DNA from: Escherichia coli
GTDB taxonomy: Bacteria > Pseudomonadota > Gammaproteobacteria > Enterobacterales > Enterobacteriaceae
Assembly (NCBI RefSeq): GCF_003334405.1
Contig: NZ_QOWM01000020.1
Length of the DNA: 60,030 nucleotides
Reading direction: 5' to 3' (one strand)
Below, one piece after another: positions 1 to 6,290 of this stretch. The translations under genes were made by a program, and so were the position numbers. Below the pieces are notes generated by a model. That model did not search any database. It was not told the origin of the DNA and worked only from the letters and a program-made list of their open reading frames with translations. Positions within the stretch are counted from its first letter, which is position 1; each line of letters opens with the position of its first letter.

Positions 1-898
1 GTGGCTTGCGCAGTGCGGGCTGACGGTGGAGCAACTGGCCAGACAGGTGGAGCCGGAATACACACCGGCGCGAAAAGCTCATCTTTATCACTGCGACCAC
101 CGGGGACTGCCGCTGGCGCTTATCAGCGAAGACGGCAATACGGCGTGGAGCGCGGAATATGATGAATGGGGCAACCAGCTTAATGAGGAGAACCCGCATC
201 ATGTGTATCAGCCGTACCGTCTGCCAGGGCAGCAGCATGATGAGGAATCAGGGCTGTACTATAACCGTCACCGGTACTACGATCCGTTGCAGGGGCGGTA
301 TATTACTCAGGACCCGATGGGGTTGAAAGGGGGATGGAATTTATATCAGTATCCTTTAAATCCACTACAACAAATTGACCCTATGGGATTATTGCAGACT
401 TGGGATGATGCCAGATCTGGAGCATGTACGGGGGGAGTTTGTGGTGTTCTTTCACGTATAATAGGACCAAGTAAATTTGATAGTACTGCAGATGCTGCGT
501 TAGATGCTTTGAAAGAAACGCAGAATAGATCTCTATGTAATGATATGGAATACTCTGGTATTGTCTGTAAAGATACTAATGGAAAATATTTTGCATCTAA
601 GGCAGAAACTGATAATTTAAGAAAGGAGTCATATCCTCTGAAAAGAAAATGTCCCACAGGTACAGATAGAGTTGCTGCTTATCATACTCACGGTGCAGAT
701 AGTCATGGCGATTATGTTGATGAATTTTTTTCAAGTAGCGATAAAAATCTTGTAAGAAGTAAAGATAATAATCTTGAAGCATTTTATCTCGCAACACCTG
801 ATGGACGATTTGAGGCGCTTAATAATAAAGGAGAATATATTTTTATCAGAAATAGTGTCCCGGGATTGAGTTCAGTATGCATACCGTATCATGATTAA
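1..898 (+). CDS. rhsD: Rhs-family protein, 3' portion (gene continues upstream of window): conserved Rhs core end followed by a ~168-aa variable C-terminal toxin domain
   Basis: Frame is open to base 1. Translation carries the conserved Rhs core-end block ([13 protein letters not shown]...[13 protein letters not shown], PxxxxDPxGL hallmark) then unrelated tip sequence. Locus assignment to rhsD is by synteny with ybbC/selU/allS. Confidence 0.75.
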
Positions 899-937
899 TT
901 TTAGTGCTTTTATTAGTGGGGCCTATAAGGAGATTCA

Positions 938-1306
938 ATGAAATATAGTTCAATATTTTCGATGCTTTCATTTTTTATACTATTTGCCTGTAATGAGACA
1001 GCTGTTTACGGTTCTGATGAAAACATTATTTTTATGAGGTATGTGGAAAAATTACATTTAGATAAATACTCTGTTAAAAATACGGTAAAAACTGAAACAA
1101 TGGCGATACAATTAGCTGAAATATATGTTAGGTATCGCTATGGCGAACGGATTGCAGAAGAAGAAAAACCATATTTAATTACGGAACAACCAGATAGTTG
1201 GGTTGTTGAGGGAGCAAAGTTACCTTATGAAGTTGCGGGTGGTGTATTTATTATAGAAATTAATAAGAAAAATGGATGTGTTTTGAATTTCCTACATAGT
1301 AAATAA
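938..1306 (+). CDS. ybbC: Rhs-associated immunity protein (YbbC-like), 122 aa, N-terminal signal-peptide-like segment
   Basis: Small ORF immediately 3' of the Rhs tip, the typical toxin-immunity arrangement; hydrophobic N-terminus [10 protein letters not shown]. Confidence 0.65.
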
Positions 1307-2016
1307 TGCTGGCGCTGATGGATGCGGATGGAAACATTGCGTGGAGCGGGGAGTATGATGAGTGGGGCAACCAGCTGAATGAAGAGAACCCGCATCACCT
1401 GCACCAGCCGTACCGGCTGCCGGGGCAGCAGTATGATAAGGAGTCGGGGCTGTACTACAACCGGAACCGGTACTACGATCCGTTGCAGGGGCGGTATATC
1501 ACTCAGGACCCGATAGGGCTGGAGGGGGGATGGAGTCTGTATGCGTATCCGCTGAATCCGGTGAATGGTATTGATCCATTAGGGTTAAGTCCCGCAGATG
1601 TAGCGCTAATAAGAAGAAAAGATCAACTAAACCATCAAAGAGCATGGGATATATTATCTGATACTTATGAAGATATGAAGAGATTAAATTTAGGTGGGAC
1701 TGATCAATTTTTCCATTGTATGGCATTTTGTCGAGTGTCTAAATTAAATGACGCTGGTGTTAGCCGATCGGCGAAAGGGCTGGGTTATGAAAAAGAGATT
1801 AGAGATTACGGGTTAAATCTGTTCGGTATGTACGGCAGAAAAGTAAAGCTATCCCATTCTGAAATGATTGAAGATAATAAAAAAGACTTGGCTGTAAATG
1901 ACCATGGGTTGACATGTCCATCAACAACAGATTGCTCAGATAGATGTAGTGATTATATTAATCCAGAGCATAAAAAAACGATAAAGGCTTTACAAGATGC
2001 TGGCTATCTCAAGTAA
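1306..2016 (+). CDS. Orphan Rhs C-terminal fragment (YlbH-like): Rhs core-end remnant plus a different ~142-aa toxin tip
   Basis: Repeats the Rhs core-end block ([14 protein letters not shown]...[13 protein letters not shown]...[13 protein letters not shown]) at ~85% nucleotide identity to 128-360, then diverges. ATG overlaps the ybbC stop. Confidence 0.7.
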
Positions 2017-2026
2017 TCTATCAAAG

Positions 2027-2257
2027 ATGATAATATTTATTTTTGCTATTATAATCATTGTTGTTTTATGCGTAATTACTTATCTTTATTTATACAAAGA
2101 TGAATCTCTTGTAAGTAAACATTACATAAACTATATGGCAATACCAGAAAATGATGGAGTTTTTACATGGCTCCCAGATTTTTTTCCGCACGTAGCGGTG
2201 GATATATCAATATACACAAATGTAGAAGATGATTATTTTTTTCTTATTTTTCCCTAA
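2027..2257 (+). CDS. Putative immunity protein for the orphan Rhs tip (YbbD-like), small membrane protein
   Basis: ORF directly after the orphan tip; strongly hydrophobic N-terminus (MIIFIFAIIIIVVLCVITYLYLY). Alternative start at 1997. Confidence 0.5.
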   Translation: MIIFIFAIIIIVVLCVITYLYLYKDESLVSKHYINYMAIPENDGVFTWLPDFFPHVAVDISIYTNVEDDYFFLIFP

Positions 2258-2289
2258 CAAATGATGATGGGGGTAGGTTTAAGAAAACA

Positions 2290-2487
2290 TTGACAGTGAG
2301 GGCCAGGGAACAAGTGGCGAAAATCGTATCAAAGAATGATCCAGATACAAAAAAAGTGTGGTGTAAATATGGTAAGATACCAGGGCAAGGGGATGGTGTA
2401 AACCTTTTTTTTGTTGGTGAAATTAATGTTACGCATTATTTTATAACAAATATTGGAGCTGGATTGCCTGATGCTTGTGCAGAGTAA
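2290..2487 (+). CDS. Hypothetical small protein (65 aa), possibly a remnant of another immunity/orphan cassette
   Basis: ORF only; AT-rich Rhs-accessory context; no recognisable motif. Confidence 0.2.
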   Translation: MTVRAREQVAKIVSKNDPDTKKVWCKYGKIPGQGDGVNLFFVGEINVTHYFITNIGAGLPDACAE

Positions 2488-3001
2488 TTGCTTGAATTAA
2501 GAGTCTATCCCATATCGAAGTCGTCAACTTCGTAGTGAGGAAAAGTAAAATTCCTGACTGAGAAAAGACATGTCGGCTATTGTGTAAAGCCATATAGCTC
2601 AGACGATGAATATCTACTCGTATTCAGTTGTTTATTGAGGGTGAGTTCCGACCCTGAAACAACAAATAAAATGAACAGTCAGAGAGTTTACATAGAATTG
2701 CACTGGTCTTTTACGATATCTGACATTGTGTAATACATATTCAGCCATGCATTAATTAAAATGTTACGTGTTTAATGTGAGTCCCTATCTGAAAATAAAT
2801 AATCCTTCCGGATTAAAATAAATTCTTGCCGGGAAAGAAAGAGGAAATAAACCATTAGCGGAAAACCAGCGGCACGCCAGGGTGACATGCCCCAGTACGG
2901 CGGCCCGATAGTCCAGGGTTCAGCGGGGGTACTGATAGTCGCGCCGACTGCATCGAGAACTCCATACAACTTTTTACGGAACGTCACCTGATAAAATTTG
3001 T

Positions 3002-3409
3002 TCAGTATCGTCTTTTGAGATTCTCAAGGTTATGGAGTAACCAGACAGAACGGACACCACTGTCGGAGATAAAAACCCCCTGTTTACGCAGCTCGTTGCT
3101 GGCCCGGTGCTGACCATGTGTCGGGAAAGCGACGGCGTAATCAACAACAGCCTGTTCAGTTGCCTCATCGGTACGGTTCTTAAGGTTAGGAGCGCGGCGA
3201 CTACGATTAATCTGCGCATCCACACCGCCTTCAGCGACCAGTTCGCGGTAACGATAAAACGTATCACGCGAAACGCCCATGATTTTACAGGCTTTTGATA
3301 CGTTGCTGAGTTCTTCAGCCAGATTGAGCAAACCGGCTTTGTGTTTGATGACGGGATTGGCAGTATGAAGCATGAGAGTTACCTCTTGTTTTGGATAAGG
3401 ATTCGACAC
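3002..3409 (-). pseudogene. ylbG: Truncated transposase-like HTH protein fragment (YlbG-like), degenerate IS remnant
   Basis: 135-aa ORF with an N-terminal HTH resembling transposase N-termini (GVSRDTFYRYRELVAEGGVDA ... ELRKQGVFISDSGVRSVW); the reading frame breaks and continues in other frames (2772-3267), with no intact catalytic domain. Confidence 0.5.
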
Positions 3410-3488
3410 TCATATCAAAACCGGTAACTCTCAACCTTTCAAGGCCATGTGTCAGATCAAGTCGCGACTAATACAAATACGTCCCTCA

Positions 3489-4598
<1,110 letters not shown>

Positions 4599-4651
4599 TC
4601 AAATCAGCTTGCGCGCTATTTTACGCGCCAACGCGCAAGGAAACTTGATTT

Positions 4652-5578
4652 TTAACTGCGTGGGTTGCCGAAAATTTCTAAAAATCCGCTGATTTCCGGC
4701 CTGCGCTGGGTAAACAAGGTCACAATATCTTCTACCGCTTTGCCGCTGCCAAATTTGCGCCATGCCAGACTCAATGGCGAAGGAGGGCGCATCGTTGGGA
4801 TTACCCGGCTGACCAGTTGTTGATTATCGATCATTGACTGGCAAAGCGATTTTGGCAAAAAACCAATGCCAACGCCCGCCAGATGGGCGGCGATTTTCGT
4901 TTCCATATCGGGAACAATAATCTCTTTTTGCCCTGGCAATCGCCAGGCGACGCGTTTGGTTAAGGTGCGGGCGCTGTCTTCAATATTGACCGCCGGAAAG
5001 CGCCGCAACTGCGCTTCTGTTAGCGGCTCTTCAACGTTCGCCAGCGGATGATCCGCCGCCATGACAAAGCGCCATTGCACCGATCCTAAGGGATCAAGAC
5101 TAAAGGTATTTGCCAGCGCCTCAGTTCCCGTGACGCCGATAGCCAGCGAAAAACCTTCGTACAATAGCGAGTCCCAGACGCCCATATAGATTTGTCGGGA
5201 GATGTGAAACTGGGTAAAGGGGTAACGCTCATTCAGCCACGCCAGCAACTGGGCGACGGCCTGGGGGTTGTAGAGCAGGTTGTTGATGACAATATTCACC
5301 TGGCGTTCCACGCCATCATTCACCTGTTGCAGCTCGCTTGGCATACTTTCCAGCCAGCTCAGCCAGTCTCTGGCCTGGGAAAGTAGATGCTCGCCAGCCG
5401 CTGTCAACGTCACGCTGCGAGTCGTACGGAAAAACAGCGCTACTCCGGTATTCTCTTCCAGAAGTTTAATGCGATAACTGATCGTCGCCGTGGTTTTACA
5501 TAATCGTTCTGCCGCTTTTGAAAAACTTCCTGTTTCAGCAACCGCAATGAAAGTCCGCAAGGTTTCTGGATCGAACAT
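4652..5578 (-). CDS. allS: LysR-family transcriptional activator of allD
   Basis: 308 aa; N-terminal LysR HTH ([33 protein letters not shown]); divergent to allA. Confidence 0.9.
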
Positions 5579-5685
5579 CTTCAGGTATCCCCTTTTAAAT
5601 CCGCAAGTTGCGTGATTTTCTTATCCTCTGATTTATCAGTATTTTTACATGATAACCCTGTTCAATTTGTGGACTAAATCTAGTT

Positions 5686-5702
5686 TTGGAAAAATATTCC
5701 AA
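5686..5702. promoter_or_regulatory. Candidate AllR operator in the allS-allA intergenic region
   Basis: Near-perfect palindrome TTGGAAAAATATTCCAA; a paralogous palindrome lies upstream of gcl. Confidence 0.55.
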
Positions 5703-5807
5703 CTTTTGTATTGATGTTGTTCTCTTAAGGTTTTAGATTGCCTGTTATTGAAACCAAGCTGACCGGTCGGCGGTGGTTGAACGGAATTATGTTACAAGGA
5801 CAAAAAG

Positions 5808-6290
5808 ATGAAACTTCAGGTATTACCGTTAAGTCAGGAAGCCTTTAGTGCTTATGGCGACGTAATCGAAACGCAGCAACGGGATTTTTTCCATATTAAC
5901 AATGGCCTGGTGGAGCGTTACCACGATTTGGCGCTGGTTGAGATTCTTGAGCAAGACCGTACGCTTATCAGCATTAACCGCGCGCAACCGGCGAATCTGC
6001 CGCTGACCATTCACGAACTCGAACGTCATCCGCTGGGTACTCAGGCCTTTATCCCGATGAAAGGTGAGGTGTTTGTGGTGGTCGTGGCGTTAGGTGACGA
6101 CAAACCAGACCTGTCAACGCTGCGGGCGTTTATCACCAACGGCGAACAGGGAGTGAATTACCATCGTAACGTCTGGCATCACCCACTTTTCGCCTGGCAG
6201 CGCGTCACCGATTTTCTGACCATCGATCGCGGCGGCAGTGACAACTGTGATGTTGAAAGTATTCCTGAACAGGAACTCTGTTTTGCGTGA
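5808..6290 (+). CDS. allA: Ureidoglycolate lyase
   Basis: 160 aa; synteny between allS and allR. Confidence 0.9.

What the first reader, a model, noticed from the sequence alone, without database searches (positions are those of the whole stretch)
2290..2487. Unassigned 65-aa ORF at the end of the Rhs accessory array
A short ORF follows the second immunity candidate in AT-rich DNA typical of Rhs-associated cassettes. It could be a third immunity-gene remnant or a spurious ORF; I see no motif.
Basis: seen in the sequence. Interest (0 to 1): 0.2.

Follow-up and report, generated by a model that had tools for sequence, protein, structure and literature searches.

The report
Tail end of frameshifted ybbD pseudogene
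The 65-codon ORF is not a separate gene: it is the out-of-frame back part of ybbD, an already annotated E. coli K-12 pseudogene (a probable Rhs-toxin immunity gene) broken by loss of one T in a run of eight, so the finding is ordinary.

Summary
The ORF at 2290-2487 (+) exists as described (TTG start, 65 aa, AT-rich DNA). The window is the E. coli K-12 rhsD–ybbC–ylbH–ybbD–selU region. The MG1655 reference annotates window 1997-2487 as one pseudogene, ybbD (b0501). The "second immunity candidate" (1997-2257, 86 aa) and the finding's ORF are its two halves.

Other E. coli strains carry an intact 163-aa YbbD. Over the 511 bases aligned, strain ECL27977 differs from the window only by T8 instead of T7 at 2236-2242. 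Of 2327 complete genomes with this segment, 1413 match the T7 allele exactly and 530 match the K-12-like T8 allele.

Homologues down to 35% identity keep one continuous frame and sit directly after Rhs toxin tips related to ylbH. That tip is weakly serum-amyloid-A-like. A confident AlphaFold model places the break inside a β-strand of a single membrane-anchored domain, so the 65-aa piece is not a domain of its own. T7 lineages have picked up further frameshifts in the tail. Published TraDIS data show the tail tolerates insertions.

Verdict: a decayed immunity gene, already known. The only open point is whether U7 slippage restores a little full-length protein. Interest is low.

The parts
1..898 (+). 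3' end of rhsD (b0497), including its AT-rich C-terminal toxin tip
   Evidence: MG1655 annotation mapped onto the window; ORF 26..898.
938..1306 (+). ybbC (b0498), the immunity candidate for the RhsD tip (first module)
   Evidence: Annotated as 'PF15631 family protein YbbC' / YbbC/YhhH family protein; ORF.
1306..2016 (+). ylbH (b0499, also called rhsH): an orphan Rhs fragment made of the end of the Rhs core (to about 1590) plus a 142-aa toxin tip weakly similar to serum amyloid A
   Evidence: Annotated as a pseudogene. RHS_core and Rhs_assc_core match residues 2-94. Pfam SAA gives E=1.3e-3 on residues 111-201. PDB 7zh7 SAA gives E=0.3 and shares the DxxFH motif. The same tip ends full-length Rhs proteins in ECL27977, O157:H7 and SW4848.
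1997..2487 (+). ybbD pseudogene (b0501), the whole disrupted gene; the intact form is 163 aa
   Evidence: MG1655 pseudogene 528640-529130 maps to window 1997-2487. The intact 492-nt gene in L002 2598-3089 encodes WP_000879785.1 'YbbD family protein'. The ATG at 1997 overlaps the ylbH stop (2014-2016) by 20 nt.
1997..2257 (+). 5' fragment of ybbD: an 86-aa product with the N-terminal membrane helix, the first three β-strands and a 4-residue frameshifted tail (LIFP)
   Evidence: NF011297 scores 193.9 bits against a cutoff of 173. Residues 1-82 are identical to intact YbbD.
2236..2242 (+). T7 run, the frameshift site (T8 in intact alleles). In the upstream frame it reads TAT TTT TTT CTT, i.e. the slippery heptamer T_TTT_TTT
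   Evidence: It is the only difference between the window and the intact ECL27977 allele in a 511-nt alignment; tract lengths; allele counts.
2290..2487 (+). The finding: residues 99-163 of YbbD read in the original frame. NCBI's pipeline calls a 57-aa version starting at GTG 2314
   Evidence: WP_001297301.1 at L001 2915-3088 maps to window 2314-2487. Both the 65-aa and the 57-aa forms are deposited as 'hypothetical protein'.
2349..2355 (+). A7 run inside the finding's ORF, shortened to A6 in strain 167 (a second frameshift)
2405..2412 (+). T8 run inside the finding's ORF, shortened to T7 in O157:H7 7409; 353 complete genomes match that allele exactly over 89 bases (a second frameshift)
2179..2185 (+). 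T7 run in the 5' fragment, lengthened to T8 in strain 2011C_4247 (an independent frameshift)

Best explanation
The ORF is the 3' remnant of ybbD. This gene normally encodes a 163-aa protein anchored by an N-terminal transmembrane helix (a lipoprotein signal in some relatives). It sits directly after, and overlaps, an Rhs C-terminal toxin tip of the serum-amyloid-A-like type. Shown: in K-12 one T has been lost from a T8 run at 2236-2242. Translation from the ybbD ATG (1997) therefore shifts frame after residue 82 and stops at 2255-2257. Residues 99-163 are left as a stranded ORF in the -1 frame. [quoted passage not shown] Also inferred: in K-12, where the toxin is a promoterless orphan fragment in H-NS-bound DNA, the immunity gene has decayed by slippage at a homopolymer. 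The 65-aa piece has no function of its own because it is about 40% of a single α+β domain.
For: 1. Identity with the annotated pseudogene. The window is 100% identical to K-12-type genomes. MG1655 annotates window 1997-2487 as pseudogene ybbD b0501.
2. A single-base cause. The intact allele in ECL27977 differs only by T8 versus T7 and translates to 163 aa whose last 65 residues equal the finding's ORF.
3. Family match. NF011298 scores 379.6 bits on the intact protein (cutoff 326) and 144.5 bits on the ORF alone, covering profile positions 99-163.
4. Population. 1413 genomes match T7 exactly and 530 match K-12-like T8, out of 2327.
5. One continuous gene elsewhere. Homologues at 92, 70, 50 and 22-35% identity all read through the site, and both halves carry conserved positions (W58, L59, P60, F63 ... 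C123, Y148, C161). dN/dS in the tail is 0.18-0.56.
6. Structure. The AlphaFold2 model has pLDDT 91, with a TM helix at 3-33 followed by one domain whose strands come from both halves. The break falls inside strand 80-86.
7. Toxin linkage. YbbD homologues at 70%, 50% and 35% identity directly follow tips 87%, 80% and 59% identical to the ylbH tip. Another homologue sits in an Rhs orphan array.
8. Decay of the tail. Second frameshifts occur inside the tail in T7 lineages: O157:H7 at 2405-2412 (353 genomes match that allele exactly) and strain 167 at 2349-2355.
9. Literature. [quoted passage not shown] The ybbC-rhsH-ybbD region is bound by H-NS and StpA (PMC9948719). In the Lipocone preprint, prok-SAA domains are polymorphic-toxin tips and the candidate immunity proteins reported for Lipocone toxins are all TM proteins or lipoproteins (10.1101/2025.01.14.632903).
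Against: No experiment has shown that YbbD neutralises the ylbH-type tip. The toxin's SAA similarity is weak (Pfam E=1.3e-3; PDB E=0.3). NCBI's pipeline annotates the tail as a separate 57-aa CDS from GTG 2314, and an AGGG lies 4 nt upstream of that GTG, so independent translation is not excluded by sequence. I found no ribosome-profiling data. O157:H7 keeps a full-length Rhs with this tip (one residue different from K-12) beside a doubly frameshifted ybbD. That is unexpected if YbbD were strictly needed by a producer. The T7 allele is the majority allele (61%), so 'broken' is the common state. The upstream frame carries a bona fide slippery heptamer.
Confidence: 0.9

Rival explanations
1. The gene is not dead. 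Slippage on the U7 run restores the frame in a small fraction of products, so K-12 still makes some full-length YbbD and the ORF is translated as its C-terminus. The slippage could be -1 ribosomal frameshifting on U_UUU_UUU or insertion of an extra U by RNA polymerase. A related form is that the T7/T8 run acts as a heritable on/off (phase-variable) switch for immunity.
For: In the upstream frame the site reads TAT TTT TTT CTT. A -1 slip on T_TTT_TTT gives ...DDYFF-SYFSLTN..., exactly the intact protein. Sharma et al. 2014 list U_UU.U_UU.U among heptamers with more than 0.10% -1 frameshifting in E. coli without stimulators. They also note that U7 is under-represented in genes, possibly because of transcriptional slippage or indels (PMC4066793). 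T7 and T8 occur on otherwise identical 1.38-kb haplotypes, and T7 also occurs on the O157 haplotype. Indels were seen at four different homopolymer runs among nine sampled genomes. O157:H7 keeps the toxin with a frameshifted ybbD.
Against: There is no stimulatory RNA structure downstream: folding 2225-2330 gives a z-score of -0.23. I saw no Shine-Dalgarno-like element upstream in the sequence. The frameshifted arrangement is not conserved. Diverged homologues are in frame, and P0052 interrupts the T run. T7 lineages carry second frameshifts in the tail (O157:H7, with 353 genomes matching that allele; strain 167), which slippage at 2236-2242 cannot repair. The tail tolerates transposon insertions. 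Runs of 7-8 are shorter than those of classical contingency loci (own knowledge).
Confidence: 0.07
2. The ORF is an independent small-protein gene (57-65 aa) translated from GTG 2314 or TTG 2290, perhaps retaining part of the toxin-binding surface.
For: PGAP calls a 57-aa CDS here in many genomes (WP_001297301.1). A weak AGGG lies 4 nt before GTG 2314. The tail sequence in K-12 is otherwise identical to the intact allele.
Against: The model shows these residues are part of one domain whose other strands lie in the 5' fragment. The fragment lacks the membrane anchor or signal that every full-length relative has. The full-length relatives (P0047, P0052 and the 140-183-aa representatives) encode this region as part of one longer protein, and the short database entries I inspected match the frameshift products or are labelled partial. 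Secondary frameshifts accumulate in it. It tolerates insertions and lies in H-NS-bound DNA. No promoter-like site was found between 2055 and 2290 on the + strand.
Confidence: 0.03
3. A chance ORF in AT-rich non-coding DNA.
For: An open frame of this length occurs in 19% of shuffles of the surrounding 800 nt. No Pfam-A hit.
Against: E=3.5e-42 to NF011298. Residue-for-residue identity with the C-terminus of a 163-aa protein. Conservation with dN/dS below 1 in homologues down to 50% identity.
Confidence: 0

Closest known systems
ybbD (b0501) pseudogene of E. coli K-12 MG1655; YbbD family protein (NCBIfam NF011298/NF011297; Pfam PF26610 YbbD_head)
   Same: It is this locus. Coordinates, sequence and the frameshift coincide.
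   Different: Nothing differs.
Rhs orphan toxin/immunity modules (C-terminal displacement arrays described for E. coli and Salmonella rhs loci; own knowledge of Jackson 2009 and Koskiniemi 2013/2014, not re-read here)
   Same: An orphan Rhs core-end plus tip (ylbH) is followed by a small overlapping AT-rich gene, downstream of the main rhsD/ybbC pair. The same tip and gene end a full-length Rhs in other strains.
   Different: Here the immunity gene is frameshifted. Neutralisation has not been tested for this pair.
TelC/TipC and the other Lipocone-toxin immunity proteins (Burroughs et al. preprint 10.1101/2025.01.14.632903)
   Same: The toxin tip resembles the SAA branch of that superfamily (DQFFH and NxxG motifs). 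The partner is membrane-anchored or a lipoprotein, as that study reports for the immunity proteins it lists.
   Different: YbbD is not named in that paper's main text. Its model is not the BamE-like ααβββ fold, and it has two conserved cysteines rather than the four of the SAA-linked family described there. Membership of the toxin in prok-SAA rests on weak scores.
Programmed -1 frameshift sites (dnaX, IS3-family transposases)
   Same: A perfect X_XXY_YYZ heptamer sits in the right frame at the exact point where the frames must be joined.
   Different: There is no stimulator, no conservation of the shifted arrangement, and the downstream frame is decaying.

Membership tests
YbbD family (NCBIfam NF011298, 163-aa equivalog) | Whole-protein score at or above the curated cutoff of 326 bits over profile positions 1-163 | tested here: not met
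   The ORF alone scores 144.5 bits and covers only positions 99-163. The T8-repaired/intact protein scores 379.6 bits. The ORF is a fragment of a member, not a member.
YbbD family (NCBIfam NF011298, 163-aa equivalog) | One continuous reading frame with an N-terminal membrane helix or signal followed by the conserved domain | tested here: not met
   The window has T7 at 2236-2242. The frame breaks after residue 82 and stops at 2255-2257. The intact architecture is seen in L002, L006, L008-L010, L012 and L013.
Rhs-associated immunity proteins | Encoded immediately downstream of, and co-oriented with, the variable Rhs C-terminal tip | tested here: met
   The ybbD ATG at 1997 overlaps the ylbH stop at 2014-2016. 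The arrangement is the same after full-length Rhs genes.
Rhs-associated immunity proteins | Partner gene type tracks toxin-tip type across genomes | tested here: met
   YbbD homologues at 70, 50 and 35% identity follow tips at 87, 80 and 59% identity. The unrelated ybfO tip is followed by the unrelated YbfC.
Rhs-associated immunity proteins | Protects cells specifically against the cognate toxin | not testable with these tools
   Needs toxin expression and competition assays.
prok-SAA (Lipocone) toxin tips, for the neighbouring ylbH tip | Significant profile match to SAA and conservation of the active-site motifs | tested here: inconclusive
   Pfam SAA i-E=1.3e-3 over 91 residues. PDB SAA E=0.3, with AWD..Y.DM and D.(F/Y)FH aligned. 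NDHG is present where the family motif is sNxxGR, read by eye.
Programmed -1 ribosomal frameshift sites | X_XXY_YYZ slippery heptamer in the 0 frame at the frame junction | tested here: met
   T_TTT_TTT at 2236-2242, read in frame as TAT TTT TTT.
Programmed -1 ribosomal frameshift sites | Downstream structure or upstream SD-like stimulator | tested here: not met
   Folding 2225-2330 gives -19.4 kcal/mol, z-score -0.23 against shuffles. No GGAGG-like element is seen in the 20 nt upstream.
Programmed -1 ribosomal frameshift sites | The two-frame arrangement is conserved among relatives | tested here: not met
   Diverged relatives are in frame. T7 lineages acquire further frameshifts.
Phase-variable (contingency) genes | Intragenic simple repeat whose length differs among close relatives and switches the frame | tested here: inconclusive
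   T7/T8 polymorphism occurs on identical flanks, with 1413 versus 530 genomes. I could not count independent events or reversions, and sequencing errors at homopolymers are not excluded for every assembly.

The most novel reading that the evidence does not exclude
The T7 'pseudogene' allele carried by K-12, and by most E. coli that have this locus, is leaky rather than dead. Slippage on the U7 run, by the ribosome (-1 on U_UUU_UUU) or by RNA polymerase, yields a low level of exact full-length YbbD. The run also mutates back and forth between T7 and T8 in populations. Immunity to a serum-amyloid-A-like Rhs toxin would then be tunable or phase-variable rather than simply lost.
Probability: 0.07. 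Interest if true: 0.35.

Novelty: already known. Interest (0 to 1): 0.08.

Why it matters
It matters little beyond correct annotation. The two small ORFs after ylbH should be read as one frameshifted gene (ybbD, b0501), not as two cassettes. Automatic pipelines still deposit the tail as a separate 57-65-aa 'hypothetical protein'.

Three side points may interest specialists. First, the ylbH/YbbD pair looks like an untested example of a serum-amyloid-A-like, probably envelope-acting Rhs toxin with a membrane-anchored immunity protein whose fold matches nothing solved closely. Second, the immunity gene is broken in most strains, mainly at one homopolymer run, with indels at three other runs among the nine genomes sampled. 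Third, O157:H7 keeps the toxin on a full-length Rhs beside a dead immunity gene.

Tried and rejected
- Pfam-A scan of intact YbbD gave nothing significant. The precomputed PF26610 YbbD_head is evidently newer than the local library.
- A sequence search of the PDB with the family profile found nothing.
- Foldseek against the PDB gave a best E of 0.84.
- I considered that K-12 YbfC, which lies after the other orphan tip ybfO, is the paralogue behind the NF007301 hit. I rejected this because there is no similarity. The ybfO and ylbH fragments share only the Rhs core.
- I looked for RNA structure that could stimulate frameshifting and found none.
- An Rfam scan of 1-6000 gave no hits.
- The promoter and terminator scan was at background level.
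- I looked for ribosome-profiling supplements (Weaver et al.), but none are held.
- ORF length as evidence was rejected because it is not significant.

Full report
**What is at the coordinates.**
The ORF is there exactly as described: 2290..2487 on the + strand, TTG start, 65 codons, stop at 2485-2487. The DNA has 29-36% G+C. Read back from the TTG, the frame stays open to 2233, just after a TGA at 2230-2232. It therefore overlaps by 25 nt the end of the preceding 86-codon ORF (1997..2257, stop TAA 2255-2257), which lies in the frame one base ahead. Two overlapping frames of this kind are typical of a frameshifted gene. ORF length is no argument on its own: 19% of dinucleotide-preserving shuffles of the surrounding 800 nt contain an open frame at least as long.

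**Where the window comes from and what is annotated.**
A 901-nt query around the finding is 100% identical to K-12-type E. coli chromosomes and is present in 2874 of 5426 complete genomes. In the MG1655 reference the features map onto the window as follows:

| Feature | Window coordinates | Strand |
|---|---|---|
| rhsD | to 898 | + |
| ybbC | 938-1306 | + |
| pseudogene ylbH | 1306-2016 | + |
| pseudogene ybbD (b0501) | 1997-2487 | + |
| pseudogene ylbI | 2854-2949 | + |
| ylbG | 3002-3373 | − |
| selU | 3489-4583 | − |

NCBI's automatic pipeline splits them instead. It calls an 86-aa 'hypothetical/YbbD family protein' and a 57-aa 'hypothetical protein' that starts at GTG 2314. The 86-, 57- and 65-aa pieces are all in the public protein collections under such names.

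**The lesion.**
Strain ECL27977 carries an uninterrupted 492-nt gene, 'YbbD family protein' WP_000879785.1 of 163 aa. In a 511-nt alignment it differs from the window at one position only: T8 where the window has T7 at 2236-2242. Its translation ends with the 65 residues of the finding's ORF. The reading frames compare like this:

- Window: GAT GAT TAT TTT TTT CTT ATT TTT CCC TAA
- Intact allele: GAT GAT TAT TTT TTT TCT TAT TTT TCC CTA ACA ...

NCBIfam has an equivalog model for the 163-aa protein (NF011298). The intact protein scores 379.6 bits against a cutoff of 326. The finding's ORF scores 144.5 bits (E=3.5e-42) on profile positions 99-163. A second model, NF011297, covers just the 86-aa product.

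**How common the break is.**
I used 89-90-nt queries for which only an exact match reaches 99% identity. Of 2327 complete genomes holding the segment, 1413 match the T7 allele exactly and 530 match the K-12-like T8 allele. The rest differ in some other way, among them a 3%-diverged allele that is T8 and intact.

Nine sampled genomes showed indels at four different homopolymer runs of this small gene:

- T8→T7 at 2236-2242 in K-12, strain 167 and O157:H7.
- T7→T8 at 2179-2185 in strain 2011C_4247.
- A7→A6 at 2349-2355 in strain 167.
- T8→T7 at 2405-2412 in O157:H7.

The last two lie inside the finding's ORF and occur in genomes that already carry T7. 353 genomes match the O157 allele of the 2405-2412 segment exactly. 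So where the first frameshift is present, the tail continues to decay.

**Is the tail part of one protein elsewhere?**
Yes. Word-based and exhaustive profile searches find a small family: 13 clusters at 90% identity and 56 representatives at 50%. Full-length members are 140-183 aa. They align across the frameshift site and have nearly invariant positions in both halves: W58, L59, P60, F63, I70, F81, F85, then C123, Y148, C161. Against homologues at 92%, 70% and 50% protein identity, the tail evolves with dN/dS of 0.18-0.56. The T8 run is kept in the 70% homologue and interrupted (TTT TAT) in the 50% one.

An AlphaFold2 model built on the 24-sequence alignment is confident (mean pLDDT 91, pTM 0.75). 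It has a transmembrane helix at 3-33 and then strands 38-45, 68-75 and 80-86, helix 89-97, strand 101-103, helix 105-112, and strands 120-126, 136-142 and 147-151. The break after residue 82 falls inside a strand. The finding's ORF supplies the last helix and three strands of what looks like one α+β domain, so it is not a self-contained unit. Several relatives replace the helix with a lipoprotein signal (L-x-G/A-C), and two cysteines are conserved. Both features point to the periplasmic side; this is inference.

**What the intact gene probably does.**
The ybbD ATG overlaps the ylbH stop by 20 nt. ylbH consists of the last ~95 residues of an Rhs core, ending in the DPxGL region, followed by a 142-residue variable tip. 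In ECL27977, SW4848 and O157:H7 the same tip ends a full-length Rhs protein. In K-12 and O104:H4 it is an orphan displaced downstream of rhsD/ybbC.

In metagenomic enterobacterial contigs, YbbD homologues of 70%, 50% and 35% identity directly follow tips of 87%, 80% and 59% identity. One further homologue lies inside an array of orphan Rhs tips. The partner diverges faster than the toxin, as is usual for immunity proteins (own knowledge).

The tip gives a weak Pfam hit to serum amyloid A (E=1.3e-3) and aligns to a solved SAA through the AWD..Y.DM...D.FFH stretch (E=0.3). A 2025 preprint places bacterial SAA-like domains in a 'Lipocone' superfamily. It predicts that these cut lipid head groups and lists them among polymorphic-toxin tips. 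[quoted passage not shown] YbbD is not named there.

The best-supported mechanism is therefore that intact YbbD is a membrane-anchored immunity protein for an envelope-acting SAA-like Rhs toxin. This is inferred from context. It has not been tested.

**Fold comparison.**

**Expression and dispensability.**
[quoted passage not shown] The finding's ORF is therefore dispensable.
- The insertion-poor stretch over ybbC, rhsH (the name that study uses; I take it to be ylbH) and ybbD coincides with H-NS and StpA binding (PMC9948719). That explains the apparent 'essentiality' of the head and suggests silencing.
- The ybbD-ylbG intergenic region is used as a neutral landing pad.
- In O157:H7 Sakai the ybbD transcript rises about fourfold at entry into stationary phase (PMC2241611).
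- I found no ribosome-profiling data.

**Rivals.**
(a) Leaky or switchable gene. The T7 run read in the upstream frame is a perfect slippery heptamer, T_TTT_TTT, and a -1 slip there would regenerate the exact intact protein. Sharma et al. report more than 0.10% frameshifting for U_UU.U_UU.U without stimulators, and they note that U7 runs are avoided in genes, possibly because of transcriptional slippage or indels. Against a selected mechanism:

- There is no downstream structure (z-score -0.23).
- The shifted arrangement is not conserved.
- Second frameshifts occur downstream in T7 lineages.
- The tail tolerates insertions.

I give this 7%.

(b) Independent small protein from GTG 2314 or TTG 2290. 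The support is the PGAP call and a weak AGGG 4 nt upstream. Against it are the single-domain model, the lack of the anchor and the decay. I give this 3%.

(c) Chance ORF. Refuted by homology.

**Verdict.**
The feature is already annotated as the ybbD pseudogene in the reference genome. Novelty: already known. Interest: low.

Noticed in passing
L005 (E. coli O157:H7 strain 7409) 1-3117 and 3098-3590; corresponds to window 1306-2487: O157:H7 carries a full-length 'RHS element core protein' ending in the ylbH-type tip, one residue different from K-12 (K224E). Its ybbD has two frameshifts: T7 at the 2236 run and T7 at the 2405 run. That is a seemingly intact toxin beside a dead immunity gene. 353 genomes match the second-lesion allele exactly.
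   Followed up: partly
window 1588-2013 (+): The ylbH toxin tip is weakly serum-amyloid-A-like (Pfam SAA E=1.3e-3). It has AWD..Y.DM, DQFFH and NDHG motifs and five cysteines. This fits the 'prok-SAA' Lipocone toxin tips proposed in a 2025 preprint. Its activity has never been tested, as far as the searched literature shows.
   Followed up: partly
window 2179-2185, 2236-2242, 2349-2355, 2405-2412: The 491-nt ybbD pseudogene contains four homopolymer runs of 7-8 bases. Each shows a length change in at least one of nine sampled genomes. T7 and T8 at 2236-2242 occur on otherwise identical 1.38-kb haplotypes. This could be recurrent slippage, recombination or, in some assemblies, homopolymer sequencing error.
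   Followed up: partly
window 2196-2284 versus 2370-2459: The 3' segment of ybbD is found in 2764 complete genomes but the middle segment in only 2327 at megablast sensitivity. About 440 genomes therefore have the tail with a diverged, deleted or IS-interrupted middle or head. Strain 98205 has an IS1 just upstream, and D53-1 has an IS1A within the 901-nt match.
   Followed up: no
window 2854-2949 (+) and 3002-3373 (-): Further debris lies between ybbD and selU. ylbI is a 96-nt pseudogene fragment. ylbG is an HTH-domain fragment that PGAP marks as truncated at the C-terminus. The G+C content rises from about 0.36 to about 0.5 across 2600-3100, which marks the edge of the Rhs-associated AT-rich block.
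   Followed up: no
intact YbbD protein (L002 2598-3086) residues 20-153: NCBIfam NF007301 (PRK09781, a 181-aa 'hypothetical protein' equivalog) matches at E=1e-16, well below its cutoff, so a related family exists. It is not K-12 YbfC, which shows no similarity. I did not identify which protein the model was built from.
   Followed up: partly
L017 1314-1865: A YbbD-family gene (29% identity) sits in a metagenomic array of orphan Rhs tips. It lies between a metallopeptidase-like tip with its partner gene and another Rhs tip, and has no SAA-like toxin next to it. It looks like an orphan immunity gene.
   Followed up: no
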